A stretch of DNA of 62,813 bases, the filler included, from Reclinomonas americana ATCC 50394 (lineage: Eukaryota), in NCBI GenBank assembly GCA_048213135.1. It is 5 parts of 2 records of this genome, joined end to end, with 100 filler letters (N's around TTAATTAATTAA, not from the genome) between each part and the next. Parts side by side here need not be neighbours in the genome. Positions count along the whole stretch, not along the records: positions 44,335 to 55,881 come from PS015365.1; 4 more parts are not named here. The stretch is one strand, 5' to 3'. Each line of letters starts with the position of its first letter. Within the stretch, counting starts at the first letter, position 1. The notes beneath the pieces were generated by a model that saw only the letters and a program-made list of their open reading frames with translations, had not been told where the DNA came from and did no database searches. A program made the translations under genes and the position numbers. Shown here piece by piece: positions 12,460 to 50,575 of this stretch.

Positions 12460-12533
12460 CGACGACGACGTACGTACGTACGTACGACGNNNNNNNNNNN
12501 NNNNNNNNNNNNNNNNNNNNNNNNNNNNNNNNN

Positions 12534-12545
12534 TTAATTAATTAA
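12534..12545. other. Artificial contig spacer TTAATTAATTAA flanked by Ns; also at 22521-22532, 44279-44290 and 55926-55937
   Basis: Identical 12-mer with stops in all six frames, embedded in N runs four times. Confidence 0.97.
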
Positions 12546-12816
12546 NNNNNNNNNNNNNNNNNNNNNNNNNNNNNNNNNNNNNNNNNNNNAAAGCCGACCC
12601 TATGCTGCTCATCAGTGACGCAGAGGCGGTGATGGTGATGCGCCTGTTCTTCGACAGTGGCGCAGTTCATGTGTGTGGTGGCCTGCGGTGAGCCAAATGA
12701 GCAACTGTTCGTGAAAAGAAAACATGCATGAGCGACTCGAACGCACCTTGTGCTTGTGGTTGATGTTGCCCGCGGTCCATTTGCCAGTGATAGATGGTGT
12801 CTCAGGGCTAAACTCG

Positions 12817-15543: not shown

Positions 15544-16203
15544 CACAGGTGCAAACACTCACATCCATCAAGAGGACACAAGGAGAGGGGAAAACTCCTC
15601 ACATAAAAGGTGGGGTGGTGGTCTGTGCGCACTGGAGGGGAGAAGAAAAGAGAATGTACAAATTAAAAACAGTGAGCACACACGTGGACAGTCGCGTTGA
15701 AAGTGGATGCGAGGAATGGGAGAGGTCGGGAAGGGAAAAGTGGAGATGGCCGGCAAAAAAATCAAAGTCGAGGAAAAAAGCTCAAACGAGGAGAAACGTG
15801 GCACTGAAGAGCAGGAGAGGGAGAGGAGGGAGTATAGAGAAGGGGAGACGCACAAAAGTGAGAACAGTGGGAGGCGCTAAAAAAAGACTTAACGTCAAAT
15901 AACCGAGAAGAAAGGATGAGAAGAGAGAAGAGAGCACAGCGAGGGGAGATACAGGGAGAGGAGAGAACAAAAAGGAGTAGAGGCAAGAATGGAGCGGGAA
16001 AACACACAAGGAGGAGTTGTGAATTCTCACCAGACACAACGCAAAAAAGAAACTGACAGATCCTGTCCTCGGATGGACCGGATTCGCCGGGATTGTCGGG
16101 TCTGACTTATGGTGTGGGATTTTGTGATCGAAGCCTCAACCAGATTATCTTTGGTATTCGTTCTGTGTTTTACTGCCAGGCTTTCACCATTGCTTCCTCT
16201 CCT

Positions 16204-18022
16204 TCAACGAGAGGCAGCCACGGCAGCCACCTGTCCGCGCTTCCCGCCAGCGACTGTGGCTGTGGCGGCGGCCTTTTCGGCGCGGAGAGCCTTACTGCAC
16301 ACGTACACACTCCACTCAGCAACAAGTGGCGACACAGACACATGGAGAGAAAACGCACGTTCTGACAGTCTTGTACTGCCCCTCGACAATCTCCAGCTTG
16401 CGCTCCCAGTTCTTCAGTTCCTTGTCCAACTCGTACATTTCCGCCTTTTGTTGCACATAGTCGAGCACCTGAGAGAGAAAGAGAGAGAGAGAGTGTGTGA
16501 GCACAGCAAACCACCATCGCCTCCATCACAGTCGACGAAACCTCGGGTACTCGAATCTCCTCCTGCTGATTGCGCAGTCGCTCATTGGCTTGCTGTGCAA
16601 TCTCCCGCGCCGCCGTGACCTCGTCAATCTCCGCCCGCAATCTCTCCAGCTGGTGTTCCCGTTGTGCAATCTCGCGCTGCAACCACGCATTCTCGGCCAC
16701 CAAGTGTCCCAGCTCCTCCTTCAATCCGTTCAGCGCCGCCACCGTGTTGGCGGTGGTGAGCTTGAGGGTGAGCAGGTCGGCGTTCTTCTCCTCAATCTTC
16801 TCCAGGTACTGTGCATGCTCGATCTTCAGCTGCTCAAAGTCGACCTTGTCAAACGTCTGCACGGAAGTGGAGAAAAGGGTTAGTGAGTCGCTGCCGCCAA
16901 TCATCATGGACCATGGGCACGCCACGTACTTCGCCGCCATCGTCACGCTGCTTCACTTGCTGCTCGAGCTTCTTCTGTGTGCCCTTCAGCGACTGGTTCT
17001 TGAGTCGCAGCTTCTCGCACAGCGCGTCCTGCACACACAACACAATCAGCACGAAAGATTTCACTCCCCCCTTCACCACCATCGACGCACCTTGTGCTTC
17101 AGCTTCTCCTCAAAGAAGCGAATGACTTTCTCCGCCGTGTGCTTCTGCTGCTGGTCGGCCTCGGTTTGCAGGAGAATCTCGCGGCGGAACTCCAGTGCCT
17201 CCTTGCGCAGATCCGACACGTGAATGTCGCTCTCCACCATGCGCGCCTACCCCACACCACGATCAGCACGCTCCACAAGAAAAAACCAACAAGGAAGAAG
17301 AGAGGAGTAGTGCCACACCTTCACATCCTCAATCTCCAAGTCCAACCGCTTCTTGTCCTTGGCCAGCTCCTTCATGCGCTCCTCGGTCTCCTCACGCGCA
17401 ATCTCAATCTTCACGTCCACCGGCAGCAAGTACTTTTCCGCATCCCGTTTCCTTCGTTGCCGCATTTGCCGTTTCTGACAGCGCGAAGAGTACGTGCGTG
17501 AGAGAGAGGGAGAGGACGGAATGGAGTGGAGTAAAGAGGAGAGTGGAGAACCTTGCGATCGGCCGCAGTGCCCGGCTGCATGTTGGAGGTGGAGCTGGAC
17601 TCGGAGAACTCTGACATGGTCTCCGAGTCGATTCCCACACTGGTGCCAGCCGATGGGCGACCCAGCACCTCTCCAGCCTCACGTAGCGCCACTGTGGTGT
17701 CCTTGTCCTTGCGCTGAGGCCCAGAGAGATGAGTGATGATCACATATCAGGCCTGAGTGTGTGTATGAGAGAGAAGAGGTACCTTCAAGTAGCGGCTAAA
17801 CATCTCATTCTCCAGCGCCAACAGCTCATTCTTGGAGCGATACAGCTGTGCGCACACACACACAAATGAGCGCTCTTCTTCTCCTCACTGTTGACAAGCT
17901 GTGACACGACTTGCCTCCAGTCTCTCAGCAATCACTTCCAGGTCGAGCAAGTCATCGGCCTCTCCCTCTCCACCCCGCTCGTCATCGTCGACCGGGCTGT
18001 TGGATCGCGCAGAGAGTGACAT
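16204..18022 (-). CDS. CCDC113: Cilia- and flagella-associated coiled-coil protein CCDC113 (CFAP263)
   Basis: Spliced motifs LALENEMFSRY, LRKEALEFRREI, DALCEKLRLKN, VDFEQLKIEHAQYLEKIEEKN, RVPE|VLDYVQQKA and WERKLEIVE match the recalled family. Confidence 0.88.
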
Positions 18023-22476: not shown

Positions 22477-22599
22477 NNNNNNNNNNNNNNNNNNNNNNNN
22501 NNNNNNNNNNNNNNNNNNNNTTAATTAATTAANNNNNNNNNNNNNNNNNNNNNNNNNNNNNNNNNNNNNNNNNNNNAACCGTACCACGACGACGACGAC

Positions 22600-28394: not shown

Positions 28395-31300
28395 TCACTT
28401 GTCGACCACCACTGCAGACGGTGCTGGCATGGTTATCTCCAGTGTCATTCCTGCAGCGCCTGCATCGCTGGAATGCCTCCTCATCTCCGCACTCGGCATC
28501 GACTGGTCGTCCAGGGACTCGAGCGATCCGACAGACGCCACCACCGGTCGTGTTGCAGGCAGCAGCAGTCGCTGCGACGACGATGAGTGCGCCGGCAGCC
28601 ATGCTTCCGACAGGTGGCTGTCGGTGGAGGCGGGTGCCGGCAGGTTCGCGTGCATTGCGGGCGGCCGGCGGTGATGCAGTCCTCCTGAGCCGGATCCTGC
28701 GGCGCTTCCGCGGCCAACCATCTCGGTGAGGGAGGGCACGCGGTTCCACGGTTGCAGCTCGTCGACCATGCAGTGCACGTCGTACAGACTGGTGTACGAG
28801 TGTGACGAACGAAGCCGCGGAGACGCCGGCGGAGACGGTTGATCCTGTTGGTGCTGCTGCTGCAGTTGTCGCTTGGCGTCCTGGATGAGGATGTTGTGAT
28901 CCTGCGTGTCGTCGGGAAGGCGACGATCGAGCTCGTTGTTGAATGGCAGCGGAGTGATGCGCACGGCACGGAATCCGTCGCAGTTGTTGGCGTGCTCGTT
29001 CTCCAGCCGGAACACGTTCCAGATGACGCGCCGCACGATCTCGCACACGGAGAGGCCGAGTTGCTCGATGGGTTTCAGCAGGCCGCTGTCGATGATGAGG
29101 GTGACCTGGTGGTGGGAGGGAGAGAGATGGAGTCAGGAAGGACAAGGAGGACTGAGCTGAGCGACGACGAGCGACGTACCTGCACAATCCAAGCAAGGCG
29201 CATGGCGGTGTTGAGAACGATGGCCACGTAATAGCTCCAGGTCGGGAACATGAGTTGCTGGGAGGGGAGAAGAAGCCACGCAATGAGGACTTCTCGTCTC
29301 CTTTCACACTCCTCGCCCAATCCACTCACCTTGCGCAGCATCCAGTGCCTCCTCCCTCTCGTCGCCACCAAACCCCAATCCATCTGCCGACACACAAGAC
29401 TCAACAAATGCCTCCTTCCCCTGTCTTTCTCCGTGCTAACTCTCACCTTCACATCCCACGCAATCCTGTACAGCGTCGCTGCGACACTCATAATGACATA
29501 CGCGACAAGCCACCCGGTCTGCTGCGGGTACGTCGCCTTCAGACTGGCAAACAACACCGAGGGGACCGACAGAAGGTATTTGACTGCGTTGCCCAAGTGC
29601 GGCCAGGCCTTGCGTGGCTTCGGCGTGTCCCAGTATCGCCGGAAGCACTGGAGTAGGCGCCAGAGTGCCGGCAGCGTCTGGAACAGAGACGCCACGATGA
29701 GCGTGTTGGTCCGACTCAGCGTCGGAGAACCAGTGGCCTCTGAAACCAGCGCCAGCGTAATATCGGTCATGGCTCCCGTGCAGCTGGTCATCTGATCGCC
29801 AAGCCAAAAGTCCTGGAACAGAACGGGGTAGAAGGGCGCGGCCATGATGCGCCAGCACGTGCGGAGAAAGTAGAAGCGGCCAGTGTAGTGCAGTATGCGG
29901 AACGGACAACAGAGAATCGCCATGACTGCGGTGTGTAATGCAGGTCAGTACATGGCGCAGCAAGGGCGGTACTTCCATAAGAGCACGCAACGAGTGGCAA
30001 AGAGGCCCCACGGATACACCTTGCGTGGAATGACGGAAATGTCGATCGCGGTGGTCACGTTGTTGAGCCACAGCACAAAGCACACACTCACACAGCCGAG
30101 CACCGCCGTCGCAATGGCCATGAGCCGGTGCGCCGACAGCGTGGTGCGCGGATCAAAGTCGAAGATGAAGATCCAGTTGATGCGACGCGCGCGCCAGATT
30201 TCCGTGTTGACTGCGAAGCCGAACAGGAAGAGCGCCAGGAGGGCCATGGCGCGGAAAACGGCCAGCTCAGCCGAAGCCTCGGCGGCCAGCAGGAAGCGCG
30301 ACACCGCGTCATTGTCGAAAAAGTAGGCAATCGTGCACATGAGAACCACGGTGATCCCTGCGAGAACATCAGCAGTTAGTGACAGTTCCTCCTTCCCCCT
30401 TGTGTCTGGAAGAAAGCAACGCAACCAGCGCAGAGGCCAATGATAAACACATCAAAGTGGTGCGGCTGCGTGACCTGCTCTTCGGCGTTGACCAGCTTGA
30501 GAGAAGACAGCGTTGTCTTGCGCGAGCTCTCCTTGAACAGCTTGCTGTACAGCTCCTCGAGTTCGTCGAGCCACCTCTTGACCTGATCAATGCCAGAGTA
30601 CAGTCGAGTCTGGTGCAGATCGTGGAGCAGTTGGTCGGCGGCCTCCGTATCCTTGGACATCTTGCGCATCTTCTTCACAATCTTGATCACGGCGGTGTAG
30701 TTGAGAATGCTGAACGGAATGAGTAAGCAGAGAGAGCAAAGATCGAGTGCATCTACCTCTCTCGCCCACTCACCAAAAGTTGTTCAGATGGTAGCACAAC
30801 GTGTACTGCTCCTGGAACGCCTTTTGCAGCGTGCGATACGTCACCGCAAACTGCGAGCGCGTCATCGACGTCTCCGGCGCCTGCCGCTCATTCGCCGCCT
30901 TGGCCTCCTCCAAGAACCGCGGCGCATACTTGTGCAGCTTCACCCATCGATCGCCCGCCACCGCAGCCTTCTCCTCGAAGAACACCGCCGCCTTGGTCAT
31001 CTGCTGCCGCAGCGCTTGCACGAAAATGTCCACGGCCCGGTGATGATCCATCACGGGCGAGCTCAGCACGTCTGCCGGTGTCTCCTGGGCACCACCGCCA
31101 TCGCCCTGCATCACTACTGTCCGATCCAGCTCCAGATTGAACTCCTCGTCCACATGCCGCAGCTGTCGCACCATCTCCATCGACTCGTGCTGTGTGAGCG
31201 TCGTGTGGTTCCCAGTCTCCGCCGCTGCTGCTGACTCCCCGTCCTCCTCCTCTGCTGCTGCTGCTGCTGGTGTCGTCGGGGTGAGGAACAGTCCAGGCAC

Positions 31301-31630
31301 CATCACACCCGGGGTGCAGACAGGCAGAGCGCCCTCATCATCATCGTTCTCCTCGTCAACATATCGATGATGCACGTGATTTCGAACATCATGATGATCA
31401 TCGTCGTCGTGGACACCAGCAGAGCCACGCCTGTCCTCTACATCTCCTACGCGTGCTTGCACAGTGTGCGGTGCAGAGAGTTGTTGTGGGGGAGGTGGTT
31501 CATGCTCCTGCGGTTCCAACTGCAGGGCGGACTTGGAGGCCTTGAGAATGCGTTTCAGCGCTGCGTAGGCGACGTACTTGGCCTGCCACTCGGGCGTCGC
31601 GTGGTCCTTCAGGTGTCGCCCGAAGCGCAT
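28395..31630 (-). CDS. XPR1: SPX-EXS phosphate exporter (XPR1/SYG1/PHO1 family)
   Basis: [30 protein letters not shown] (SPX), [63 protein letters not shown] (EXS). Confidence 0.95.
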
Positions 31631-31821
31631 GTGTATGTGCGCTCTCTTTGTGAAGGAAGCTTCAAAACAACCAAATGACTGTTTCACGAAGTTCCAATTG
31701 GCGACGGAGAGGTGGTGGTGCACAAAGGTGAGGCGATTCCTTCCCTGCAACAACATGTGCGGCTACGTGCGAGCGTGCGTCCAGCAGAATCGTTGTTCTT
31801 TTCTTCGATCACTGTATTTCC

Positions 31822-36819: not shown

Positions 36820-39800
36820 CTATCTCATGGGGAATGCGATGTCTGTCACGCGTCGCGACTCGAGTTGCAGTGGATATCGCTGCTGCTGCTGTAGTTGCAG
36901 TTGTTGTTGTTGCTGCTGCTGCTGCAATTGCTGCTGTTGCGCAAAGAACGGATGTTGACGGCGCAGCAGAACAAAGCCGCCATTGGGTGGCGGTGAGAAG
37001 AGCACGGGCGGCAGTACCTGCGGTTCGCCATTGACAAAGGCTGTGCACACGGTGGTGAGTAAGCTGGCGGCGCAAGAAAACATGATAAAAGCAAAACTTG
37101 CGCAACTGCTCGGCACCACATCCAGCGGCACTACAGAGCCGGGCGAGCTGGGGACGAGTTCCGCACTCAGCTTGTTCCTGTTTGTGGCACGCTGGCAGCG
37201 CGCACAGCAGCACCAGCCCAGGAGGATCGCGGTGGCAACGAGTGCGGTGCCGCCGGCGGCCACCAACAGCCACACCCACCACGGCAGGCCGGAGGACGAG
37301 GTGCGACTTGCGCTGTCGGGCGCATCGCCCGTGGTAGACACGCGCAGATTGGCCGAGGGAATCGACTGGCCAAACGAGTTGACGGCGCGCACATTGACAA
37401 TATACGGCGTGCCCGGCTGCAGGCCGCTCTGCGTGTACGTGTAGGCGGAGCGTGCGGCAGAGGAGACGTCGGAGGCGTTCTTGAAGCCAACAATCGGCCG
37501 GCCGCCATTCTCCGGAAACACCTGGATCTGGTAGCTGGTGATGGCCGCCAGTCCGCCATACGCCGGCGTCGAAAAGTTAATGGTCAACGAGGTGTCGGTG
37601 ACGGTGCTGCGTGTGGGCGCCGTCGGTGCTGCCGCCTGACCCGTCTGCGTCGTGCTGCCCTGCGTCGGCGTGCCCACATTGCTGTTGGCGGTGCCTTGCG
37701 AGCCCTGCCCGAGACCGACGGCGTTGCTGGCTACCAGGACGAGGCGGTAGCGCGACGTGGGCTTGATGGTGAACATTAGCTGCGTGCACAGGCCGTACAC
37801 GGTCGGCACGGTGCCTGTGGTGCTCGTGCTGCCGACCACGGCCGTGTTGAGTCGCAGGCCGTCGGCCGCGCTCGGGTTGCCTGTCGACGGCAAGAATCGC
37901 GTGGTCCACTGCCAGTAGACCACGTAAAATACCGTGGCGGTGCGTGAGCCGACACCTAGCGCAGGCCACGACAAGCGGTACTCGTTGGCCGCGTAAAAGT
38001 CGATGGACGGCGGTGCTGCGGGTGGAACCAGGTCGGCGAGCAGCAGCGGCGACGCCTGCACATAGACGGACCGCGAAATGGCGCTCGTGCCAATCGAGTT
38101 GGTGGCCGTCAGGTAGAAGCGATAAAAGTTGCCGCTGAGCACCGTGACCGTCGTCGTCGAGTCGGAGACCTTTAATGTCGCCGCCGGCTGTGTCGGGGAG
38201 ATGGCGGACTCGCCGACAAGCACCTGCTCCACAACGGGTGTCGAGCCGCCAGTGGCCGTCGACCACGAAAGAGTAATGGCGCTGCCGGTGTTGCTCACCA
38301 CGAACAAGTTGGTGGGATCGTTGGGCACTTGGCCCGTCAACACGTTGTTGTTGCTGAGGCCGTTGTTGGCGCTGCCGTCCACGAACGACGCCTGCACCGT
38401 CGACTGCCCCACATCGTTGATGCCGCGCACGTCAACAAAGTAGGTGTTGGCGTCGGCGAGGCCTCGAATCACCGCCTGTTGCACCGAGGTGATGTTCTGC
38501 GCCAGCGTGCTGGCAGCCAGAGGCCGCCATACCACCAGCCACTGCGTGACGAATCCCTGCCCGCCCGTCTCCAGCGGCTGGCCCCACGTGAGCCAGATGG
38601 AGGTCGATCGTTTCAGCAGCAAGTTGGACGACAGCGATGTGATGCCGCCGGGCCGCACGGCCGCCGACGCCGTGGTGATGGTGATCACGCTTGCCGACAG
38701 GGCAGTCTGGTAGCCGTTGAACGAGGCCACGCCGACGCGATACTTGGTGTTGGCGTTCAGGCCGTTGACGGAGAGCGTCGAGGTGGAGGAACCGAGCGAG
38801 CCCTTGAACTGCGTGACGAATGTGTCGGGCACAAATGTCGTCGAAGTGGAGGTGGCATTGGTCAGGCCTTGCACCAGCAGCTGCACGCCAACAAACTGCA
38901 GGTCGCCATCGGAGGTGGCCAGCGACGCTTGCGTGCCAATGGCCGTCGAGGGCGTGGAGAGTGTGAAAGTCGCGTAGCCGGCTCCCACTGTGCCTGCGGC
39001 GCCTCCGGTGGAGATGGCCGGCAGCGGGTACGGCCGCACCACTGCATTGACAATCTGCAGCGTGGTACTTGATCCGGGACCACTCTGCGTCGACAGCACA
39101 TCCTGGTCCGTGCGCACATTCGTCGCCTGCACGGCGTACGTGTACGACTTGCCGGGGACCGTGGAAAACGTGTAATTCGTCACCACCGAGGTCCACGTGA
39201 ACAGGCGACTGCAGCTGTTGGTGGTCTGGCTGACGATGTAGCCCGAGATGGCAGAGCCGCCGACTCCGACCGGCGCCGCCCACGACACATTGGTCACCAC
39301 GTCCTGGTAGAAATTGCCGGCAAACCCGACGCCGCCACCATTCGGCACACCACCCTGCGAGTTCCGCACACCACCCACCACCGTCGGCGCAGCCGGAGCA
39401 GTTGGTACATCGTCTGTGCACGGAGGACGGGGTAAGTACACAAACACGCTCAAATGCTTTGATCTCCTGCCCCCTTGCACGTAACTCGTGGTGTGTGTGG
39501 TGAGGCTGAGGTTGGCGGACGCCACAGAGTTGCCGGAGCTGCTGGTGGCAAACACGCTGTACGCGTAAAACGTGCTGGGCGTGAGGTTGGTGTCCTGAAA
39601 CGACACCGCGTCGCCACTCGTCGGTATTGGAACGGTGGTGTACAGCGTACGAAGAGCGGTACCGATCCCGCGGAACACAGAGAAGCCAGTCACAGGATTC
39701 GAGCCGAAGCTCTGCGCAATCGTCCACGTGAAACTGATGGTGGTGGTCGTGTACTGCGTCAGCGTGATGACTGGCGGCGTGGCCGGAATAACTCCAGCCA

Positions 39801-42800
39801 TCACAGGCGTTGTGATCCCCACGGCGACACTGAACTGACACGTTACCGGACTAGAGGCAGTACCGGCCGGGTTGAAGGGCGACGAAGAAGGAAAGGCGAT
39901 CGAAAACTGGTTGCTGGCGCACACTTGCAGCGAGACAAACGTGTTGACCGGCAGCCCGCTGACATCGACAAAGTACGAGGTCAAATTGCCGTTCCACCCA
40001 ACGGCGCCACTGCCGCCATTGACGGGCGGGATAAAGGTAGAATCCAACGCCACGGCGGCCGTGGTGGTGACCGTCGACACAAACGTGGCTCGGTTGATGG
40101 AGTAGACGACGCGGAAGGGCGATAAGCTGGGATGCGCCGTCGTGACATTGCTCTGGGAGGCGTTCGAGGTGGCCAGGTTGTCGCCGCCCACATTCACCGG
40201 CGTGCTGAAAGTGAGCCGCAGGCCCGAGGAGAACAGACGCGACACGGTCACGTTGGTCGGGGCGGCCGGCACATCGCCATTCTTCTCCGTGTTGACAAAG
40301 GCCGTCGCCGAGCTCGTGGACACCAGCGAATTGAAGGTCGCCTTGACGCGCACCGAGTATGCCGTGTCGGCCGTGAGGCTCACACTGCTGGTGGTGCTGC
40401 CACTTGTGGTCGTGTAACCAGTGATTTGCTGATAAAAGCCGGTGGCCAGCGGAAACAGACCGTAGAACGAGGTGAAGACGGAGCCGTTGTTGACTGTGGA
40501 GCCAAGCACGGCCGGCTGCTCTGTACCACTGCCAATGGCGACCGTGAAGGCAAAGGAGAAGCTCGAGGTGCCACCACCGGCAGTTCCGCCCCACACGTTG
40601 GGGAGGGTGAAGGCCACCACAAACGACGTGGAGGTGATCTGGTCCACCATGGGTAGTGTGGCGGCCGACGGCACCGTCTTGTTGGCGACGGCCATGGTGA
40701 CCACCACGGTCGACGAGTAGGCGAGGAAGCCGCCGAGAAATCCCGCATTGCCCGTGCCGTTGTTGTAGGCGACCTTGACGACGCACGAGCTGCCGGTGAC
40801 GCCCATGATCTTGGCCAGTACACGGTTGCGGGTGACGCTGGCACTGGCGGTGGCCGTCGATACGCCCAGGTCGTTGAGGTCGCTCACCGTTGGCACCGTC
40901 GCCGTGCCTCCATCACAAGTGCTCAGCACAAACCACGACGGATTGACGGCGACACCCACGTTGCCGGCGGGCGCCTCCCATTCCAGCACAAACGCCGAGT
41001 TGGTAATGTAGCGCACAGTGCTCGACAGCGTTGGCGCCGTCGGCGACACAATGGCGGTGGCCGGCGCGTCGCTGGTGGTGAACGAGCCGGTCCACGCACT
41101 CTGCGACCGATTCACTTGCGTGTTCGTGTACACCGACACGGTGTACGGGGTGAGAGAGTTGAGGGCGCCGAGAGTAATGGAGCGCCACGACCCCATAAAA
41201 GTCTCCGAGAGCGTCACTGTGGTGCCGTTGTTGGGTGTGCCGACGGCGAAAGCTCGCTGCGAGTTGCCTTGCGTCGTCAGCACCAGAAAGGCGGCAAATG
41301 TCGAGCTCGTCGCCCCCACATCTTGCGTGCTCAGGTTGCCCTGACCGACCACACTCGTCGGCAGCTGCACCCAGATGACCGCCGACAAGTTGGTTACGTA
41401 ATAAATCGCATTGGTCGACTGTGTGACCACATCCGGTCGATTGGTGGCGGTGTAGGCACTCAGTGACGACACAGTGGTGACCGTAGTGGGAGAGTTCTGT
41501 CCGTTCGGCAACGTCACAGTGGCACCCATGGTGTAAAAGCGACCGGGAGAGAGCGCAGACAGCGTGCACAGAAACGCATCGTTGTGCAGACCGGCGGGCT
41601 GGAACAGCACGTTGCAGGAGACGGAGGGTGTCACCGCCGTGCCACGCAGCGTCAGCGTAAATGTCGGCGAGGGCGTAACCGCGGCGGCTGTTAGCGATGC
41701 ACCCGACGACACAATCGCAATATTGTTGGCGCTGTACGTCGCTTGCGCCACTGTCAGCGTCAGCGCAATGGTCGCCGTGGTATCGGTCAGATCCACCAGC
41801 GCAACCGACGCAAGTGCGCCACCGGCAGCTGCCGGTGCCGCAATGACATCGGCACCGGTGTTCGGCGCCGTTCCGTTCCGACTGCAACAGTAGATCACCA
41901 GCGGTGGCTGACCACTGAGACTGGTGATGCTGACGCCGACAGTGTCGAGCGTGCCGAGGGTAATGGCGCCGATGGTCGGCAACCGCGTGCACGTGTTTGT
42001 CGCCCACGTCAGCGTGAGACCGACGGCACTGGTGTAGCCCTGGCCGGCCGACACGACCGTGACCGCCGTCCCGTTTGCCACATTGCCGGCGCCATCGGCC
42101 AGCACCGTGGCCGCGGCACCTGCGCCGCCATTGCCGTAGATGCTGAAGGAGAGTAGTGTGTTGGCGCCGCAGCCGGCACCCGTGGCGCCCGCCGTGACAC
42201 CAATCGCCGTCACAGATGTGGTGGTGGCCAGTGAGCCGAGTCGCACGGCCACCGTAAATGTCAGGGAAGTGGGAACGGCGGCCTGCATGAACGGGAAGAG
42301 AAAGAGAGTTGAGGGCAATGCTCCATGAATCAGTGATGCGCAGCGGTGTGACGAAGCAACGAACCGATGATGTGGGGTTGAGATAAATCGCGTCGGCCGT
42401 GGGCACAGCAAACTTGGTGGCCAGCGCCGACGAGCCCGACACCATACTGATCGCCGCAAACGACGGAAACCCGGCCGTGACAGAGGCGGCAACTTTGCCA
42501 TTGTTGACTGGTCGACCGGGACAGAAGACGACAAAGTCGACGCCGACAGTGAGGAGGCCATTCGCTGATGTGCCGCCAATCACACTTTTGCCGTCGCGAC
42601 CGTAAAACACCGGCAGAGTTGGCGTGTTGATGACATTGTTGTCGGCGACCTGCGCCGCCAGTGCCGTGGCCGTGAGGCCGGCCGCATTGGAGACCAGCAC
42701 ACCGGGACGCGTAGAGACAAGGAAGGAGAGAATGCCGGCGACCACCAGCGACCCGCTCACATCGGTGGCAGCCATGTTCAGCGACCCCGTTCCGCCACTG

Positions 42801-44164
42801 CCATTGGCGGCAAACGAGTACGGCGTCACCGCAAACCCGTCGGTGCCAATGTCCGTCGGCGCACCGTTGATACTGTAGGAGCATGAGGTGGAGGTGACGG
42901 CCACGGAGGCCCAACACGACAGAACGGTGATGCTCGGCGCCCACTGTGGCGTGGAGCCAGTGGACAGAGTGAGGAGCAGCTGCCCGCCGACCGTGGTCGC
43001 CGGAGAGCCGGCGGTCGCCAGCTGTCGCCACGATTGCACACCTTCACCCACGGCACTCACGGCCTGCACGCGCACCAAGTACGATGGCGCGGTAAGTCCC
43101 TTCAGTAGCGACCGCCCTCCGCTCACTCGCCCGACACTGGTGACCACCACCGTCACTGCAGAGGGCGCCGAAAACACCGTCGACACCGTCGTTCCAGTAT
43201 TGTCGGTGGCAGGGGCGGCCTCCACACGAAACTCAGACAGCGCAGCACCCGTGCGTTGCGGTGCATCCCACGAGATGAGACCGCCATTGGTGGCCACAGT
43301 GACCACCGTTAGATTCGCATTCTGAATCGCGTCGGGCGTCTGCTTCCCATTTGTCGTCGTCACACTCAGCGCGGCGGACCACAGACCGAATCCCCATTCA
43401 CCGACGGCGCGCACGCGAACCGAGTACGCGGTATTCGGCTGCAGCAGACTTGTGGCGGAGTCGGCGCCCGTCCCATTGACGACGCACGAGACGGTGGAGA
43501 ACGGCAGGGGTGGCGAGGTGAACGGCGCCGCGACCTGGCCCGCGTCGTCAAAAAAGGTCACCGCAGTCCACCCGCCGGCTTGCGTCTTGACTAGGGAGGG
43601 AAACGGAGAGGAAGTGAGAAGCGAGAGAAGGAGAGGGAGAAGGAGAGGGAGAAAGAGGTGAAGGAGAGGGAGAAGGAGGTGAAGGAGAAGGAGGAGGGAG
43701 AGGCAGAGAAAGAAGGGAGAGAGAGAAGTACAAAGAGAGAGGGAGAGAGAGAGAGAGCAACAGCGAGAAATGATTGTAGTTCATCGCAACTCTGCACTTG
43801 AAAGTACGGCGACTGCAGCTGCACGCGATGGATATCGGTGCCGGTCTGGCCGAGTTGCGTCGGCGGCGTAAACGACAGCACAAATGAGGTGGCGGCCATG
43901 TACCTCGCCGCCAGGCTAGTTGGCTGCCGAGGAGTGCCTGACACCGGCACCGACACCACCAGCGGCTGCGAGCGCACACCTTCCCCGTACGCATTGACAG
44001 AGAACACCTGGACGAAACACATACGTTGATGTGAGAGGCAACAATGAGGATCGAATGCCATTTTTTTGGTCGCGTGCGCACCGTGATCGAGTACTGCACG
44101 CCCTGCTGTATGTTCTGATCGAATGAGCGTAGCACCAGGCCGTAGCACAAGCTGGAGCCTGTCA
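36820..44164 (-). CDS. Giant (>2000 aa visible) type I membrane protein with many fibronectin type III-like repeats; N-terminus missing
   Basis: Repeated FN3 motifs (e.g. LQPNTAYSVRVRAVGEWGFG, LTPSTFYAYSVFA, LQPGTPYIVNVRAVNSFG), TM WWVWLLVAAGGTALVATAILLGWCCC near 37200-37285 and a Gln-rich tail. Intron 42364-42283 joins the two long ORFs. Confidence 0.9.
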
Positions 44165-45297
44165 CTGAGGTGCACTGTCGAGGGGAGGGCGAGGAGCAAT
44201 GAGCAGGGAGGGGGAAGAGAGGGAGAAGAAAGGGNNNNNNNNNNNNNNNNNNNNNNNNNNNNNNNNNNNNNNNNNNNNTTAATTAATTAANNNNNNNNNN
44301 NNNNNNNNNNNNNNNNNNNNNNNNNNNNNNNNNNCCCACCGCCATACACCCCAGTGCCCTCCATCTCGCTCAGCTCGCACGCACTGCCACGCACCGCGAC
44401 ACCCGTCACCACCGGGTCGGCTGCCAACATCGCCCCCAGCACATGAGTTTCCACAGCAGAAGCAGAGCATCCAAGAAGCAACACACGACACAACTCGCTT
44501 CGACAACACCCGTCAATTCCGATCGCACCCACGCGCCCGAGCCGACAGGTGGCGGAATCGAAACCTTTTTCCCAATCAAGAAGAGAAACCACCTTGAGAG
44601 TCATCCTCCCAGCCTCTCCACAGAGTCACTGCACACGTCGTACCTCAAAGCACACGCGACAGCCGACATCCACCGCCCGTAGAGTGTACTGATACACTGC
44701 CGACAACTGCACCACCACTTCCCCGCCGGCTTCTCCCACTCGAATCCAGCGACACCGCGGTGCCGGAGCTCGTTCGCCTCCCCCGCGCACCTCAAACGTC
44801 GCACTCAGCACGTGTCCCTCTCGCGCCCGTTCCTCCAGTGCAAGATGCAGATTCTGCGGATNNNNNNNNNNNNNNNNNNNNNNNNNNNNNNNNNNNNNNN
44901 NNNNNNNNNNNNNNNNNNNNNNNNNNNNNNNNNNNNNNNNNNNNNNNNNNNNNNNNNNNNNNNNNNNNNNNNNNNNNNNNNNNNNNNNNNNNNNNNNNNN
45001 NNNNNNNNNNNNNNNNNNNNNNNNNNNNNNNNNNNNNNNNNNNNNNNNNNNNNNNNNNNNNNNNNNNNNNNNNNNNNNNNNNNNNNNNNNNNNNNNNNNN
45101 NNNNNNNNNNNNNNNNNNNNNNNNNNNNNNNNNNNNNNNNNNNNNNNNNNNNNNNNNNNNNNNNNNNNNNNNNNNNNNNNNNNNNNNNNNNNNNNNNNNN
45201 NNNNNNCGAGAGGGCGCGTCTGAGTTTCGGTGCGTCAGTGGGCGAAGAATTGCACTCCCCCGTTCCTGTGCCTCTCTCCGTGACACGCCTGTCGCAG

Positions 45298-47261
45298 ATG
45301 GTTTCGTGTTCCGCTGGGTGAGCCGGCCGATTCGCCACTGGCCGAGGAGATTGTGGCGGCGCGCGGATCGCGGGTGTACAGTGCGCGAACGGGCGATGTG
45401 GGCATGCAGCTGGCGTTTGAGTACACGCCGGTGCGAGACGTGGATGGTCTGCGGGGCGCGCCGCAGCGTGCCTTGTCGGCCGTCGTCAAGAGTTACGTGT
45501 GTTGGTGAGTGGGTGGTTTCCTGTGCTGTTTTAAGTGAACTCACACACGCAGAGTGTGCGTTGCAGGCGGTCAGTGCATCGGCGAGATCGTGCTGCACAC
45601 GGCGCCGTTTGAGGGTCCGGCAGTGCCAGTCGGTCACACGGTGCGCGGCATGACGTGCTTGCGATGCGTGCCTCTGGCGGCGAATGGTGGTGGCGGCGAT
45701 CTGGATCGTGATCGAGTGGTGGTGGAGTGGAGCTGGGAGCGCTCCATGAACGGCAATGCGTACACGCCGTGTCGACCAGTGTGCACGAGTGCGGAGCGCG
45801 ACTACACCACCAACGCCGACGACGTCAACTGCCATGTGCGTCTGGTTGGCCGGCGGTGGAGGGTGCACGATCGGCGTCTGCTGGAGGTTGTCGCGTCGTC
45901 GGCTGTCACGGTGGAGATGAGTTGCGTGTGACGGGGGAAGGGGAAGGGGAAGGGGGGAAGGGAGAAGGGAAGAGACTGGCAAGCCTCTCAACGCACGTTC
46001 AGAAGGCGAGAGTGAAAGACAGACGGAGAGGGAGTGAAAGGAAGAGAGCGAGAGAGATGGAGAGAAAGAAGGAGAACTGTCAGTCAGTGACTTACGCGAG
46101 AAAGGGGAGCCTAAAGCGAGACGTCGTGGATTGCCAGTTGCACTCGCGAAGAATACCAGAGAGCAAGGAAGGGAGAGAGGGAGAAAGAGAATTGGCAGTC
46201 GTCTGACCAATGAGAGGGAACGACAAGCCTGACGGTGCGACGTCGTTGACTAAATACATTATGGTGAAGAGAATCGGTAGTTGTCTGACCACACGTGGGA
46301 AAGAAGAGCCTGGACAAGAGATACTGTGAACAGACAAGTGCGCTTTCTGGAAGTGACTGAGAAGGGGCAAGGAATGCTGGAATCATCGTTTCAGAAGAAT
46401 GCACTTAGTGAAAGGGAGAGCGCGCATAGTTCTCACAACAACTGCCCGCAGGTGCCAAGCTTCGAATTGCGACGCTGCGCAGCCTGCAGCAACGCGAGAC
46501 AGTGCATCCAGTGGTCGACACCGTCACCGGCACGGAGCTGATGCTGGTGTTTTCTCGCGAGAAATTCCGTGTCGCCAGCAAGTCGCGTTCCGGCGGCAAT
46601 GGTGCCACGCTGATGAAACGCTCGTGGAACAGTCACGAAATGGTCGGCAAGCGTGGATTGTAATAGCATTGTACTGTGCGGATTGCTGACTGCTGCTTGC
46701 CGCAGGATATGCGAGTGGCGGCCGATTCGGAAGACTCGTGTCAGCTGGAGATTCAGATGGTGAGTCGGCTTTCATTTCATCGTTTATGCTGGTCGCTGAC
46801 ATGCTCTCCTGCCCCAGTCGCCAGCCGACATTCTGCGGGTCACCGTCGACGGCAAGGAGGCAGCGGATTCACTAATTGTGCTCTTCCGCTTGCTTGCTGC
46901 CATGGCGACGGTGCGTCTTTGTCTTTGTTGGCTGATGTGTTTTCTCTCTCCTCAAGAATTCGTCGCACAGAGCATTCTCGATGAGATCTGCGGCGATGCG
47001 GGGGCCTCAGAGCGATGGAAGACGCAGCCGCGTGATCCTGGCGCGCACTGTCCGTACCGTGCGCGATTGCAGCCGCGCTCGGTACCCTCTGGCCGCCGCC
47101 GCCCACCATCTCGTATTGTTGCGTCGTGTGGCGCTGCTTCTCCGTGGCTGTTGATTAGCTCACCGCCATGCGCACAGTTGTACTCGGGCCGCCAGTCGCT
47201 TGCCTGGAATCACGCTTACAAAATGGTCTCCAGCTTCTCCTTCCCTCCCATGGACGAGTAA
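45298..47261 (+). CDS. AIR9/SCAB-like cytoskeletal protein (A9 Ig-like repeats plus a PH-like domain), 5' partial
   Basis: WFR...EIVAARG..Y...DVGMQLAFEYTPVR..DG..G.P and WSWER...Y...DDVNCHVR are A9-type repeats. The C-terminal beta-rich region ends in helix ADSLIVLFRLLA. Confidence 0.65.
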
Positions 47262-47306
47262 ATATGTGTACAACAATCTAGGTTTTATGCATTATATTCA
47301 CACGCG

Positions 47307-49329
47307 TTACTCTTCTGGCGTTGATGGTGGTGGTGGTGACGAAGATGGTGAGGGCGATGCGGACGGTTGAGAGACACTCTTGCCGGGTGCCGTGGTTCTG
47401 CCGGCGCTCTTTGGTCTGCGAGTTGGCGCGGCCAGCGGCTGCGAGGAAGGGAGAGAGCAAGTGAGCAACTGCGGAGTCTCGTTATTCCCCTCTCTCAATC
47501 CACACTCCACCATATCAATGTCACGATCGGCGCCACTGTCGCCCACCGGCGCCTCCACAATCGGCTCCGTGAATTGCACCGGCGGTCCACCCTCCGGCAC
47601 TCCCTCGAATGGCGTTACTCGCAGCTGCGCCGCCGCGGTCTTGGTTGGTGTTTGGTACGACACGCCAAAGAGGAACCAGCGCTGCGCCAACTCGTCGCCA
47701 CCGACACCCATGTGTTTCGCCAGCTCTGCGTCCTCTTTCCAGCGCCCACTTTGCGCCGTCGCCACATCCTGCCCGACGTGATGAGGAGGAGCAGTGTCAC
47801 ACCACAACCGGCGAGGCGAGCGAAGCATTTACCTGCTCCGACATGCCCTGCTCTTCGTACCACACACGCAGGGGGTCCTCGCGACGCGACACAATCACCG
47901 TCACGGTCGTCTGCGGTGGCTTGGCCATGACGGAGCGCGCCAGTGGGTGGTGCAGGCCCAGCAGACCCGCCTCTGGCAAGTGCTCGTGCTCGCCAACAAT
48001 CTGCGGTGACGGATCAGCTGATGGACGGGGAGGCGGTGGTAGTGGAGAGAGAGAGAGAGACCTGGAAAATGTGCGCAGTGCGACTCGCCAGGTGGACCAT
48101 GTTGACGACGGAGCCGATCTTGACGTGATCGTCGGCTTGCATGCCACCGTAGAGCACGTCTGTGGGGCAGGGAGTGAGGAGGAGGAGGAGAAGGAGGAGG
48201 AGGGGAATAGGAGAGGAGAGATGAAAGAGGAGGAGGAGAAGAAGGAGAAGGAGGAGATTGAGGAGGAGGAGGAGGGGGAGGAGGAGAAGGGGAGAATAGA
48301 GAATGAGAGTGAAGGGCTAGCGACGAGAAAAAGAGGAAATGGCAAACAGGAGGAAGGGCTTGTAAACGAGAAAAGGAAGAGGTGTAGAAGACAGACGAAG
48401 CTAACGAACAGCTAAGAGAAGACGACGAAGCAGTGGTACAAGGAGATGCGACAATGAAATGAATGCAGAGAGAGATGATCCCGCCGTACCCACAACATCA
48501 GCACGACTCGTCAAGCTCTGCAGGGCCTTGAAGTGCGCCCGCGCCTCGGTGAGCTCCAGCGCCATGCGCTCCGCCTCGATCGGAGCATGCGCCGAGTCCA
48601 CATCGTGTCGCGCCCGCTGCTTCGCTCCATTCGATCGCTCCAGCACCGGAAGGACGTTGTCGCGAATGGACTCCATTTCGTCTACATAGAGAGAAAGAGA
48701 GAAGAGTGAGGAAGGGAGGAGAGAAGGCAATTGAAGTGACTTTGATNNNNNNNNNNNNNNNNNNNNNNNNNNNNNNNNNNNNNNNNNNNNNNNNNNNNNN
48801 NNNNNNNNNNNNNNNNNNNNNNNNNNNNNNNNNNNNNNNNNNNNNNNNNNNNNNNNNNNNNNNNNNNNNNNNNNNNNNNNNNNNNNNNNNNNNNNNNNNN
48901 NNNNNNNNNNNNNNNNNNNNNNNNNNNNNNNNNNNNNNNNNNNNNNNNNNNNNNNNNNNNNNNNNNNNNNNNNNNNNNNNNNNNNNNNNNNNNNNNNNNN
49001 NNNNNNNNNNNNNNNNNNNNNNNNNNNNNNNNNNNNNNNNNNNNNNNNNNNNNNNNNNNNNNNNNNNNNNNNNNNNNNNNNNNNNNNNNNNNNNNNNNNN
49101 NNNNNNNNNNNNNNNNNNNNNNNNNNNNNNNNNNNNNNNNNNNNNNNNNNNNNNNNNNNNNNNNNNNNNNNNNNNNNNNNNNNNNNNNNNNNNNNNNNNN
49201 NNNNNNNNNNNNNNNNNNNNNNNNNNNNNNNNNNNNNNNNNNNNNNNNNNNNNNNNNNNNNNNNNNNNNNNNNNNNNNNNNNNNNNNNNNNNNNNNNNNN
49301 NNNNNNNNNNNNNNNNNNNNNNNNNNNNN

Positions 49330-49380
<51 letters not shown>

Positions 49381-49810
49381 AAGAGGAGAGAGAAGGAAGA
49401 GGGAAGAATGCAATTGAAGTGACTTTGATTGTGAATGCAATGTGGATTACATAAGAGTGGGCGATGTGGAGAGAGATAGAGAGAGGCAGGAAAGCGCAGA
49501 AGGAGAGGAGAGAGAAGAGAGAAAGCAATTGAAGTGACTTTGATCACAAGCTCACTCCCTCTCTCTCCTTTTGTCTCCCTTCCTCTCTCTTCCCTCTCTC
49601 CTCTCTGCTCTCTTCTCCCTCTCTCTCACACACACCCAACACCAGCGCAAAGTACGCCGAAGTCATCGGAAGTCGCGCATCGTCCTCTGAGCTCACAGGC
49701 AACACATGATGCCGTTGCTGCAACGTCGACGACGTTGACGTTGAGAACAACGCACACGCGCGAGAAGCGCACGACAGCGAGAGCAGCAGTGGCCTTCGCG
49801 CGAGGAGCAT
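47307..49810 (-). CDS. greA: Bacterial GreA/GreB-like transcription elongation factor with a predicted mitochondrial presequence
   Basis: Exons 49810-49636, 48681-48490, 48159-48062, 48000-47833 and 47768 onward give MLLARRPLLLSLSCASRACALFST...RLPMTSAYFALVLDEMESIRDNVLP...LQSLTSRADVVD...VKIGSVV...FQIVGEHE...GLLGLHHPLARSVMAK...TVTV. An upstream in-frame ATG exists at 49828. Confidence 0.8.
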
Positions 49811-49895
49811 TTCTTCGTTGGAGGACATGGACGTGCGGGACAGGGCGCGAGCACGCACTGGCCGTTGTGTGACTGGTTTACTCATTGATACACGC

Positions 49896-50503
49896 ATGGC
49901 GTACCCGCCCGAGCTGCGACTCAAGTTACGCGCACGTGTGTGTGTGAGAGAGAGAGAGAGAGGGAGAGAGGACGTGCAGATGTGTGGTGTTGTGTCAGTC
50001 AGTGTTTTTTTCTTGTTGAAAGTGTGTGCGTGGTGAGAGTGTCGCCCAGTTGAAGACGCACGCTCAGAACGCAGATGAACCAATGAGCTCGCTTGCATGG
50101 TGAAAGTGTCACCCAGTTGAAGACACACGCTCAGATCGTTGATGAACCAGTGAGCGTTTCTCTCTGTCACTCTGCATCGTGAAAGTCACCCAGTTGAAGA
50201 CAGACGCTCAGAACGCAGATGAGCTAGTGAGCGCTTCTCTTTTGCATCATGAAAGTGTCGCTCAGTTGAAGACGCACGCTTAGAACGTTGATGAACCAAT
50301 GAGCTTTCTCTCTGCTATCTCGCATCATGAAAGTGTCGCCCGGTTGAAGACAGACGCTCAGAACTTTGATGAACCAATGAGCTTCTCTTCTGTGTCACTT
50401 GCATCGTAAAAGTCACCCAGTTGAAGACAGACGCTCAGAACGCAGATGAAACCAGTGAGCGTTTCTCTCTCCCTCCCTCTCTTTCTCCTCCCTCTCTCTC
50501 TCT

Positions 50504-50575
<72 letters not shown>

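What the first reader, a model, noticed from the sequence alone, without database searches (positions are those of the whole stretch)
47307..49810. Intron-containing, mitochondrion-targeted GreA/GreB homologue implies a bacterial-type organellar RNA polymerase
Seen: after splicing, PMTSAYFALVLDEMESIRDNVLP aligns without gaps to my recollection of the GreA N-terminus (PMT..G.EKLREELDFLK...RP). LQSLTSRADVVD, VKIGSVV, FQIVGEHE, GLLGLHHPLARSVMAK and WFLFGVSY follow the Gre C-domain in order. A presequence-like N-terminus precedes it. The coiled-coil tip is divergent (ARHDVDSAHAPIEAE rather than GDLxENxEY), and there is a ~40-aa insertion and a Pro/Ser tail. Established: Gre factors act in the secondary channel of multisubunit bacterial RNA polymerase; most mitochondria use a phage-type polymerase, and jakobids are the known exception. 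Inference: a jakobid-like host with a retained ancestral transcription factor, possibly with altered cleavage activity. I recall a similar factor being noted in a jakobid, so novelty needs checking.
Basis: partly seen in the sequence, partly recalled or inferred. Interest (0 to 1): 0.8.

Follow-up and report, generated by a model that had tools for sequence, protein, structure and literature searches.

The report
Nuclear intron-split GreA-like transcription factor
A eukaryotic nuclear gene split by four introns encodes a very divergent copy of the bacterial RNA-polymerase helper GreA with an organelle-import-like leader; a protein of this kind was already reported in the jakobid Andalucia godoyi, so this is a further example, not a new kind.

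Summary
On the minus strand, five exons (49636-49810, 48490-48681, 48062-48159, 47833-48000, 47307-47768) joined at four GT-AG introns give one 364-aa frame. No single exon passes a family threshold: exon 4 reaches Pfam GreA_GreB at E 0.051. The spliced product scores 35.7 bits on a Gre profile I built from 117 bacterial Gre ORFs, and 39.7 bits on a 33-row alphaproteobacterial GreA profile. The best of 4001 shuffled or reversed controls scores 10.5 and 9.9 bits. Wrong exon orders score 12.6 bits or less.

The C-domain match is strong. The N-terminal coiled-coil match is moderate: hhalign E 2.2e-5, and 1 of 5000 shuffles does as well. At the tip, the E44 equivalent is Ala; an Asp sits at or beside D41. 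Placement weight is 0.96 among alphaproteobacterial GreA, but AU tests are not decisive.

The leader has 4 Arg and no acidic residue in 41 aa. Splicing, targeting, host identity and the polymerase partner could not be tested. A divergent mitochondrial GreA/GreB homologue is already published for Andalucia godoyi. Verdict: new member of a known kind.

The parts
49636..49810 (-). Exon 1: start codon, presequence-like leader (residues 1-47, 49670-49810), and the PMT start of the Gre N-domain (residues 48-58). The last base is the first base of codon 59.
   Evidence: In-frame upstream ATGs at 49828, 49885 and 49897 are possible alternative starts.
48682..49635 (-). Intron 1, 954 nt, GT...AG, phase 1. 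It holds the 583-N assembly gap (48747-49329), an (AG)n run and three copies of a 19-nt motif (48728, 49411, 49526).
48490..48681 (-). Exon 2: rest of helix 1, the tip (H84-P92, 48581-48607) and helix 2 of the Gre-like N-domain, up to ...RADVV.
   Evidence: AlphaFold on the exon alone gives a helix over 5-62, pLDDT 89.6.
48160..48489 (-). Intron 2, 330 nt, GT...AG, phase 1. It contains a (GGA)n array at 48171-48294.
48062..48159 (-). Exon 3: first half of the Gre C-terminal domain (VKIGSVV...IFQ).
48001..48061 (-). Intron 3, 61 nt, GT...AG, phase 0.
47833..48000 (-). Exon 4: second half of the Gre C-domain (IVGEHE...HPLARSVMAK...TVTV, 47890-48000), then the start of the lineage-specific insertion.
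   Evidence: Pfam GreA_GreB E 0.051; three NCBIfam GreA models, E 0.045-0.1; Atlas: top three clusters are GreA/GreB C-term, score 0.85
47769..47832 (-). Intron 4, 64 nt, GTAAAT...CAG, phase 0.
47307..47768 (-). Exon 5: rest of the insertion (to about 47679), WFLFGVSY (47655-47678, possible last strand), a Pro/Ser-rich tail (47310-47651) and the stop codon (47307-47309).

Best explanation
Shown. This is a nuclear, spliceosomal-intron-containing gene for a 364-aa protein. Its core (residues 45-192) is homologous to bacterial GreA over both domains, and is most like alphaproteobacterial GreA.

Inferred:
- It descends from the GreA of the mitochondrial ancestor and is the counterpart of the divergent GreA/GreB homologue reported in Andalucia godoyi.
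- The leader (about 47 aa, Arg/Ser/Thr/Leu-rich) imports it into the mitochondrion.
- There the well-kept C-terminal globular domain docks on the rim of the secondary channel of a bacterial-type multisubunit RNA polymerase, and the coiled coil reaches into the channel.
- Because the E44 equivalent is Ala and the ENAEY motif is gone, classical stimulation of transcript cleavage is doubtful. It may act mainly by occupying the channel (anti-arrest or regulatory action), or use the nearby Asp85/Asp87 pair instead.
- The roughly 49-residue insertion in the C-domain and the Pro/Ser tail are lineage-specific additions of unknown role.
For: Gene model. CDS GC 0.63 and GC3 0.72, against 0.47-0.62 in the introns; GC3 of the insertion is 0.76, like the core at 0.79.

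Homology:
- 35.7 bits on the 117-row Gre profile and 39.7 bits on the 33-row alphaproteobacterial profile, the latter aligning candidate 45-190 to profile 5-143.
- Controls reach at most 10.5 and 9.9 bits.
- hhalign of the core: Prob 96.4-97.5, E 1.1e-9 to 7e-12.
- N region alone: hhalign Prob 76.3, E 2.2e-5; HMM 9.4 bits, matched or beaten by 1 of 5000 shuffles.
- Exon order test.
- Exon 4 alone points to GreA/GreB in Pfam, NCBIfam and the Atlas.
- GreA type rather than GreB or Rnk.

Alphaproteobacterial affinity:
- The careful tree puts it with Rhizobium and Mesorhizobium GreA. The split candidate + 7 alpha rows has support 100/99 (names).
- Grafting the candidate on all 111 edges of a backbone of 33 alpha and 24 other rows gives summed likelihood weight 0.962 inside the alpha rows, 0.035 inside the others and 0.002 on the stem (labels).

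Leader: 4 R, 2 H, 0 D/E, 9 S, 3 T and 9 L in the first 41 aa.

[quoted passage not shown] By eye, its published sequence shares with this one the MT..AY start, LP..ER, QIV, an LFS+Ser/Thr leader motif, and W...V.Y..PT after an insertion in the same place.
Against: - No RNA evidence for the joins.
- Intron 1 spans an assembly gap.
- No official family threshold could be applied to the spliced protein. The tools take only unspliced window translations, and single exons stay below the cut-offs (14 against 26.9 bits).
- The N-domain gets no score from the mostly gammaproteobacterial profile (-1.0 bits), from Pfam on exons 1 and 2, or from the Atlas.
- AlphaFold on exon 2 alone gives one long helix, not a hairpin.
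- E44 aligns with Ala in all three alignments. D41 aligns with Asp in one and with Val in two.
- The candidate's branch is 10 changes per column and its composition deviates at p<0.001.
- AU tests do not reject the alpha rows held together without it (p 0.215), nor the candidate held with 31 gamma/beta rows (p 0.378). The best non-alpha edge has p-AU 0.141.
- Only Pseudomonadota were sampled.
- The leader's hydrophobic moment is modest (0.39) and no targeting predictor was run.
- The host and its mtDNA are unknown.
- The comparison with the A. godoyi protein is by eye only.
Confidence: 0.6

Rival explanations
1. It is a true Gre-family descendant that no longer works as a transcript-cleavage factor on a bacterial-type polymerase. 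Either the host is not a jakobid and the protein was repurposed to another partner through the FKBP-like C-domain, or it is a pure channel-blocking regulator.
For: E44 aligns with Ala and the ENAEY motif is lost. There is a roughly 49-residue insertion in the C-domain and a long disordered-looking tail. The branch is extremely long. The host is unknown. The closest homologues of a neighbouring EXS gene are only about 29% identical, so the lineage is poorly sampled.
Against: The domain order, the coiled-coil length (the spacing from PMT to the conserved Pro is the same as in E. coli GreA) and the C-domain core are kept. That is what one expects if the polymerase contact is still under selection. 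The only published eukaryotic counterpart sits beside a bacterial-type mitochondrial polymerase.
Confidence: 0.2
2. It is a plastid-targeted Gre factor of an alga, acting on the plastid-encoded bacterial-type polymerase. The N-terminus would be a signal-peptide-like stretch followed by a Ser/Thr-rich transit part.
For: The leader begins with a hydrophobic stretch (LLLSLS) followed by a Ser/Thr run, and its helical hydrophobic moment is modest. The host is unidentified.
Against: Cyanobacteria lack Gre factors, and the authors expect chloroplasts to share that state (PMC7026648, passages read). The affinity is alphaproteobacterial. No plastid-related gene turned up among the 99 ORFs scanned against Pfam. 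The non-photosynthetic A. godoyi protein has a similar leader. An Arg interrupts the hydrophobic stretch.
Confidence: 0.07
3. It is a decaying or unexpressed gene, or the gene model is partly wrong: a missing exon in the gap, a different first exon or start, or part of the 'insertion' being intronic.
For: There is no transcript evidence. A 583-N gap lies in intron 1. Three upstream in-frame ATGs exist. The divergence is extreme.
Against: The frame is clean across five exons with four canonical introns. GC3 is high in all coding parts, the insertion included. Profile scores add up only in the proposed exon order. The PMT-to-Pro spacing across the exon 1/2 join equals that of bacterial GreA.
Confidence: 0.08
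4. The resemblance to Gre factors is a chance match.
For: Single exons stay below every curated cut-off. phmmer of exons against PDB chains finds no Gre.
Against: 35.7-39.7 bits against at most 10.5 for 4001 controls. hhalign gives E down to 7e-12. All 118 bacterial Gre ORFs score against it, the best at 35.3 bits.
Confidence: 0.02

Closest known systems
Andalucia godoyi mitochondrion-targeted GreA/GreB homologue (_04888.mRNA.1; Gray et al. 2020, PMC7050145)
   Same: It is nucleus-encoded and very divergent, with an N-terminal basic Ser/Thr-rich leader before an (N/P)MT start. It has a degenerate coiled-coil tip, a QIV core, extra residues before the last strand, and a C-terminal extension. 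By eye it shares the motifs LP..ER and W...V.Y..PT.
   Different: The A. godoyi protein is longer (the tool gives the cell as 518 characters). Its tail is charged and helical-looking rather than Pro/Ser-rich, and its pre-strand insertion is much shorter (about 13 against about 49 residues). Its genome is described as largely intron-free, whereas this gene has four introns.
Alphaproteobacterial GreA (e.g. Rhizobium, Mesorhizobium; loci L096, L119)
   Same: Two-domain order, domain lengths, the PMT start, and the QIVG...PLAR...K C-domain core. These are the best pairwise scores (35.3 and 35.1 bits) and the highest identity (29% over 141 columns).
   Different: About 157 aa with no leader, no introns, no insertion and no tail. 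They keep GDLSENAEY at the tip, where the candidate has HDVDSAHAP.
E. coli GreA, GreB and Rnk (L001-L004)
   Same: They belong to the same family. GreA scores 21.8 bits against the candidate.
   Different: GreB scores 6.4 bits and Rnk -1.2 bits. The region before the candidate's C-domain is GreA/B-length (75 aa), not the shorter region I recall for Rnk.
Gfh1-type Gre homologues that bind the secondary channel without stimulating cleavage (recalled, not examined here)
   Same: This is a possible functional analogue if the degenerate tip abolishes cleavage stimulation.
   Different: No sequence comparison was made. This is an analogy of mechanism only.

Membership tests
GreA/GreB transcription elongation factors | C-terminal globular domain (Pfam PF01272 GreA_GreB) | tested here: met
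   C-domain profiles built here give 28.0 and 24.9 bits, aligning candidate 129/133-190; shuffles reach at most 9.1 and 7.9 bits. Pfam itself could be run only on exon 4: 14 bits, E 0.051, profile positions 27-65 of 77, below the 26.9 cut-off.
GreA/GreB transcription elongation factors | N-terminal antiparallel coiled-coil domain (Pfam PF03449 GreA_GreB_N) directly before the C-domain | tested here: inconclusive
   For: against the alphaproteobacterial profile, hhalign gives Prob 76.3, E 2.2e-5 over 75 columns; the HMM gives 9.4 bits, with 1 of 5000 shuffles as good. The full-length alignment runs from PMT onward. The exon-2 stretch is helical. Against: -1.0 bits on the mostly gamma profile; no Pfam hit on exons 1 or 2; no Atlas hit; the fragment model shows no hairpin.
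GreA/GreB transcription elongation factors | Two acidic residues at the coiled-coil tip (E. coli GreA D41 and E44; their role in catalysis is recalled). Both were invariant in my 5-row alignment. | tested here: not met
   E44 aligns with Ala89 in all three alignments. D41 aligns with Asp85 or Val86. Asp85 and Asp87 lie in the predicted tip.
GreA/GreB transcription elongation factors | Binds the secondary channel of a multisubunit RNA polymerase and stimulates transcript cleavage | not testable with these tools
   There is no partner sequence because no genome is held. This needs biochemistry.
Mitochondrial GreA/GreB homologue of jakobids (A. godoyi type) | Nucleus-encoded, with a mitochondrial presequence | tested here: inconclusive
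   Introns and eukaryotic neighbours show that it is nuclear. The leader's composition fits a presequence. No predictor or localisation data were available.
Mitochondrial GreA/GreB homologue of jakobids (A. godoyi type) | Orthology with the A. godoyi protein | tested here: inconclusive
   The two share motifs by eye only. The published sequence could not be given to an aligner here.
Mitochondrial GreA/GreB homologue of jakobids (A. godoyi type) | Host mtDNA encodes rpoA-D and the host lacks a phage-type polymerase | not testable with these tools
   No whole genome is held for this window, and no sequencing run was listed.
Rnk / short Gre-like factors | Gre C-domain with a short N-terminal part | tested here: not met
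   E. coli Rnk scores -1.2 bits against the candidate, against 21.8 for GreA. The region before the candidate's C-domain is 75 aa.

The most novel reading that the evidence does not exclude
The window comes from a eukaryote outside the jakobids. Then one of two things holds. Either a second lineage has kept a bacterial-type mitochondrial RNA polymerase together with its Gre factor, or a Gre descendant has outlived the loss of that polymerase and now serves another partner. The loss of the E44 acidic residue would fit the second case.
Probability: 0.15. Interest if true: 0.8.

Novelty: new member of a known kind. Interest (0 to 1): 0.4.

Why it matters
Jakobid mitochondria are the only ones known to transcribe with an ancestral bacterial-type polymerase (PMC7050145, section 18). 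Accessory factors that survived with that polymerase show how much of the bacterial transcription cycle was kept.

In the open literature searched here, only the A. godoyi case appears (searches: two papers, both about that protein). A second, independently annotated Gre homologue adds three things:
- Measured support for an alphaproteobacterial affinity.
- A first indication that the canonical catalytic tip is degenerate. The A. godoyi tip also looks non-canonical by eye.
- A marker gene that could be used to screen other protists for retained bacterial-type transcription.

Tried and rejected
Searches and tests that gave nothing:
- Whole-genome search: no genome is held for this window.
- Sequencing runs: none was listed for 47200-48740.
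- Word-index search with exon 2, lengths 'longer': 74 candidates, none at E <= 10.
- phmmer of exons 4 and 2 against PDB chains: only polyketide-synthase noise (E 0.3) and nothing, respectively.
- Metagenome scans with exons 4 and 2: 595 and 588 pattern matches, none confirmed.
- Exhaustive search of 1.84 billion representatives with exon 4: one hit, a tandem-repeat ORF (P0131), which is spurious.
- Atlas search with exon 2: no usable hit.
- AlphaFold on exon 2 alone: a single helix, which says nothing about a hairpin.
- Deletion-grid test for WFLFGVSY as the last strand: no better than shuffled tails.
- Rfam and tRNA scans of the window: nothing.
- Earlier findings of this scan: none.

Searches that were poorly aimed or uninformative:
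- A search with E. coli GreA returned only close enterobacterial GreA (120 listed, 87-100% identical), useless for a broad profile. Diversity came instead.
- Host placement by a neighbouring EXS exon: 4 hits, 27-30% identical, a plant and an amoeba among them.
- AU tests on the 53-row tree were not decisive.
It was redone with FastTree.

Full report
WHAT IS THERE

The finding lies in a GC-rich eukaryotic nuclear window. It has many assembly gaps: 6829 N in 24 runs. It also has microsatellites and intron-split genes that include flagellar ones (CCDC113/CCDC96, Cfap43), an SPX-EXS transporter and a giant FN3 surface protein.

On the minus strand, an ATG at 49810 opens a frame that can be carried through five exons: 49636-49810, 48490-48681, 48062-48159, 47833-48000 and 47307-47768. 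Each exon was translated on its own. My first coordinates for exon 3 were off by ten bases and were corrected. Joined by script, the exons give 1095 nt and 364 aa with no internal stop. The four introns all begin with GT, end with AG and have pyrimidine-rich 3' ends. Their lengths are 954, 330, 61 and 64 nt, in phases 1, 1, 0, 0.

Coding GC3 is 0.72, and intron GC is 0.47-0.62. Intron 1 holds the 583-N gap. A 19-nt motif occurs three times in this intron, and one copy abuts the gap. The gap therefore probably sits in an intronic repeat array. The opposite strand holds only low-complexity ORFs without family matches.

IS IT A GRE FACTOR

No single exon passes a curated threshold.
- Exon 4 gives Pfam GreA_GreB at E 0.051, 14 bits against a cut-off of 26.9.
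- Exon 4 also gives three NCBIfam GreA models at E 0.045-0.1.
- The three nearest Atlas clusters for exon 4 are GreA/GreB C-terminal clusters at 0.85, which the tool rates as a lead only.

The tools do not accept a spliced sequence, so I built profiles in the script box from bacterial Gre genes fetched here. These came from E. coli greA, greB and rnk, 80 named loci and 35 loci from unnamed Pseudomonadota genomes.

Results on the 117-row profile:
- The spliced protein scores 35.7 bits (E 3.7e-13 for one target), with profile 41-144 aligned to residues 83-190 across exons 2, 3 and 4.
- I gave 4001 shuffled or reversed controls. 2511 got a score, and the best was 10.5 bits.
- Among 1065 six-frame ORF pieces of the window, the best was the exon-4 ORF at 9.5 bits and the next 7.0.
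- Scores build up only in the proposed order: e3 5.2, e4 10.2, e3+e4 29.6, e2+e3+e4 37.7 bits. Skipped or permuted exons score 3.0-12.6 bits. This supports both the homology and the exon model.
- hhalign of residues 40-262 against the same alignment gives Prob 96.4, E 1.1e-9 over 142 columns, anchored at PMT = PMT.

THE TWO DOMAINS SEPARATELY

The C-domain is solid: 28.0 bits against a shuffle maximum of 9.1.

The N-domain scores nothing on the mostly gammaproteobacterial profile (-1.0 bits). hhalign gives it only E 0.0085-0.029 there. The best pairwise matches turned out to be alphaproteobacterial, so I fetched 30 more GreA loci from the class of the Rhizobium genome. I left out L122, which is from an unpublished genome, and two short ORFs.

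Results on the 33-row alphaproteobacterial profile:
- The candidate scores 39.7 bits, aligned from residue 45 to 190 against profile 5-143. Shuffles reach at most 9.9 bits.
- The N region alone gives 9.4 bits, matched or beaten by 1 of 5000 shuffles (4853 scored).
- hhalign of the N region gives Prob 76.3, E 2.2e-5.

I read the N-domain as homologous with moderate confidence. Its length agrees with GreA: PMT to the conserved Pro has the same spacing as in E. coli, and four extra residues are spread over helix 1, the tip and helix 2. AlphaFold on exon 2 alone gives a confident helix (pLDDT 89.6) but no hairpin, so it offers no independent support for the coiled-coil fold.

DETAILS THAT DIFFER FROM BACTERIAL GREA

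- Tip. The tip reads HDVDSAHAP where alphaproteobacteria have GDLSENAEY. The E44 equivalent is Ala in all three alignments. The D41 equivalent is Asp85 in one alignment and Val86 in two. That these two residues are the catalytic pair is my recollection; they were invariant in my 5-row alignment.
- Insertion. After the TVTV strand, about 49 residues precede WFLFGVSY.
- Last strand. WFLFGVSY resembles the last Gre strand by eye, for example the Rhizobium C-terminus seen. My deletion-grid test gave it no support: 39.2 bits against a shuffled-tail mean of 37.5 and maximum of 41.1.
- Tail. A 114-aa tail follows, with 21 Pro and 25 Ser+Thr.

WHICH GRE, AND FROM WHERE

Pairwise phmmer scores all 118 bacterial Gre ORFs against the candidate:
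- Best: L096 at 35.3 and L119 at 35.1 bits.
- E. coli GreA 21.8, GreB 6.4, Rnk -1.2 bits.

Exact-sequence look-ups name L096 as Rhizobium, L119 as Mesorhizobium, L103 and L106 as Hyphomicrobiales, and L097 and L107 as Brevundimonas.

A careful tree was built with 53 rows, after leaving out GreB/Rnk-type paralogues and sampling 20 of the 80 named loci. It puts the candidate next to Rhizobium and Mesorhizobium. The splits holding it with 4 Hyphomicrobiales rows and with 7 alpha rows both have support 100/99. However, its branch is 10 changes per column and its composition deviates at p<0.001.

The AU tests are not decisive:
- Alpha rows held together without the candidate: delta lnL 6.25, p 0.215.
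- Candidate held with 31 gamma/beta rows: delta lnL 6.10, p 0.378.

I then grafted the candidate on each of the 111 edges of a FastTree backbone (33 alpha rows plus 24 of the 45 other rows, under LG+G4). Summed expected likelihood weights are in the table.

| Placement | Edges | Summed weight | Edges rejected at p-AU 0.05 |
|---|---|---|---|
| Inside the alpha rows | 64 | 0.962 | 8 |
| Stem between the groups | 1 | 0.002 | 1 |
| Inside the other rows | 46 | 0.035 | 23 |

The best non-alpha edge keeps p-AU 0.141. Ten further rows from the class of G070 were looked up, and all six that carry a name are Alphaproteobacteria.

So an alphaproteobacterial affinity is favoured but not proven. GC-driven composition could contribute, and only Pseudomonadota were sampled.

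TARGETING

The first 41 residues hold 4 Arg, 2 His, 9 Ser, 3 Thr and 9 Leu, with no acidic residue. The maximal helical hydrophobic moment is 0.39. This fits a mitochondrial presequence, but no predictor was available. Three in-frame ATGs lie upstream at 49828, 49885 and 49897. Using one of them would add a further basic stretch.

WHAT IS KNOWN

Gray et al. 2020 (PMC7050145) is the key paper. I read passages and section 18 and saw supplement file 1, row 518.
- Its mtDNA encodes rpoA-D, and they found no phage-type polymerase there.
- They list the Gre homologue among the ancestral bacterial traits of that mitochondrion.

A 2025 diplonemid paper (PMC12699882, one passage read) repeats this and says that no euglenozoan mitoproteome has such a factor. 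Three full-text searches found no other eukaryotic case.

By eye, the A. godoyi sequence and this one share several features:
- a basic Ser/Thr-rich leader with an LFS+Ser/Thr motif;
- (N/P)MT..AY;
- LP..ER;
- QIV;
- a non-canonical tip;
- extra residues before a W...V.Y..PT ending.

I could not compute this alignment here.

The window is not A. godoyi. The proteins differ throughout, and that genome is described as largely intron-free.

For the plastid rival, PMC7026648 (passages read) states that cyanobacteria lack Gre factors and suggests that chloroplasts share that state.

VERDICT

The sequence observation is real and far beyond chance. The protein is a GreA-type homologue encoded by an intron-split nuclear gene, probably organelle-targeted and probably of alphaproteobacterial descent.

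Three parts of the interpretation are inference from the one published precedent:
- that it works in a mitochondrion;
- that it works with a bacterial-type polymerase;
- that the host is a jakobid.

None of these could be tested, because neither the genome nor RNA data are available here. The kind is already in print, so this is a new member of a known kind. The degenerate tip and the C-domain insertion are its own points of interest.

Noticed in passing
window 50092-50575: Just upstream of the gene there is a 77-nt tandem repeat (4.9 copies, 77% matches). A (TC)n run at 50464-50575 follows, and then an N gap. Its function is unknown.
   Followed up: partly
window 48728-49544: Intron 1 carries three exact copies of a 19-nt motif (48728, 49411, 49526) and an (AG)n run (49330-49393). 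One motif copy abuts the 583-N gap, which suggests the gap is a collapsed intronic repeat array.
   Followed up: yes
window 48171-48294: A (GGA)n array in intron 2 creates long Glu-rich and Ser/Pro-rich ORFs on both strands (e.g. 47573-48415 +, 280 aa). These are not genes: they have no family match.
   Followed up: yes
window 36820-43780 (-): There is a very long ORF of 1919 aa with repeated FN3 domains (E 3.9e-33), a C-terminal membrane-span-like stretch and a poly-Gln tail. It is preceded by a 955-aa FN3 ORF in another frame. This is probably one giant surface protein gene.
   Followed up: partly
window 28398-31762 (-): An SPX-EXS (XPR1/PHO1-type) gene is split over at least four ORF pieces. 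Its best homologues among 5.8 billion proteins are only 27-30% identical, which suggests a poorly sampled host lineage.
   Followed up: partly
window 16173-16952 (-) and 54104-55258 (+): CCDC113/CCDC96 (E 6.5e-23) and Cfap43 (E 5.6e-16) coiled-coil matches are present. The host therefore builds motile flagella.
   Followed up: no
window 12490-12589, 22477-22576, 44235-44334, 55882-55981: Four places have two 44-N runs separated by exactly 12 bases. This looks like an assembly or scaffolding artefact pattern.
   Followed up: no
protein cluster seen (cluster 9): The 158-aa Pseudomonas GreA sits in a 90% cluster whose representative and many members are the 1073-aa carbamoyl-phosphate synthase large subunit. 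This is probably a clustering artefact of the collection.
   Followed up: no
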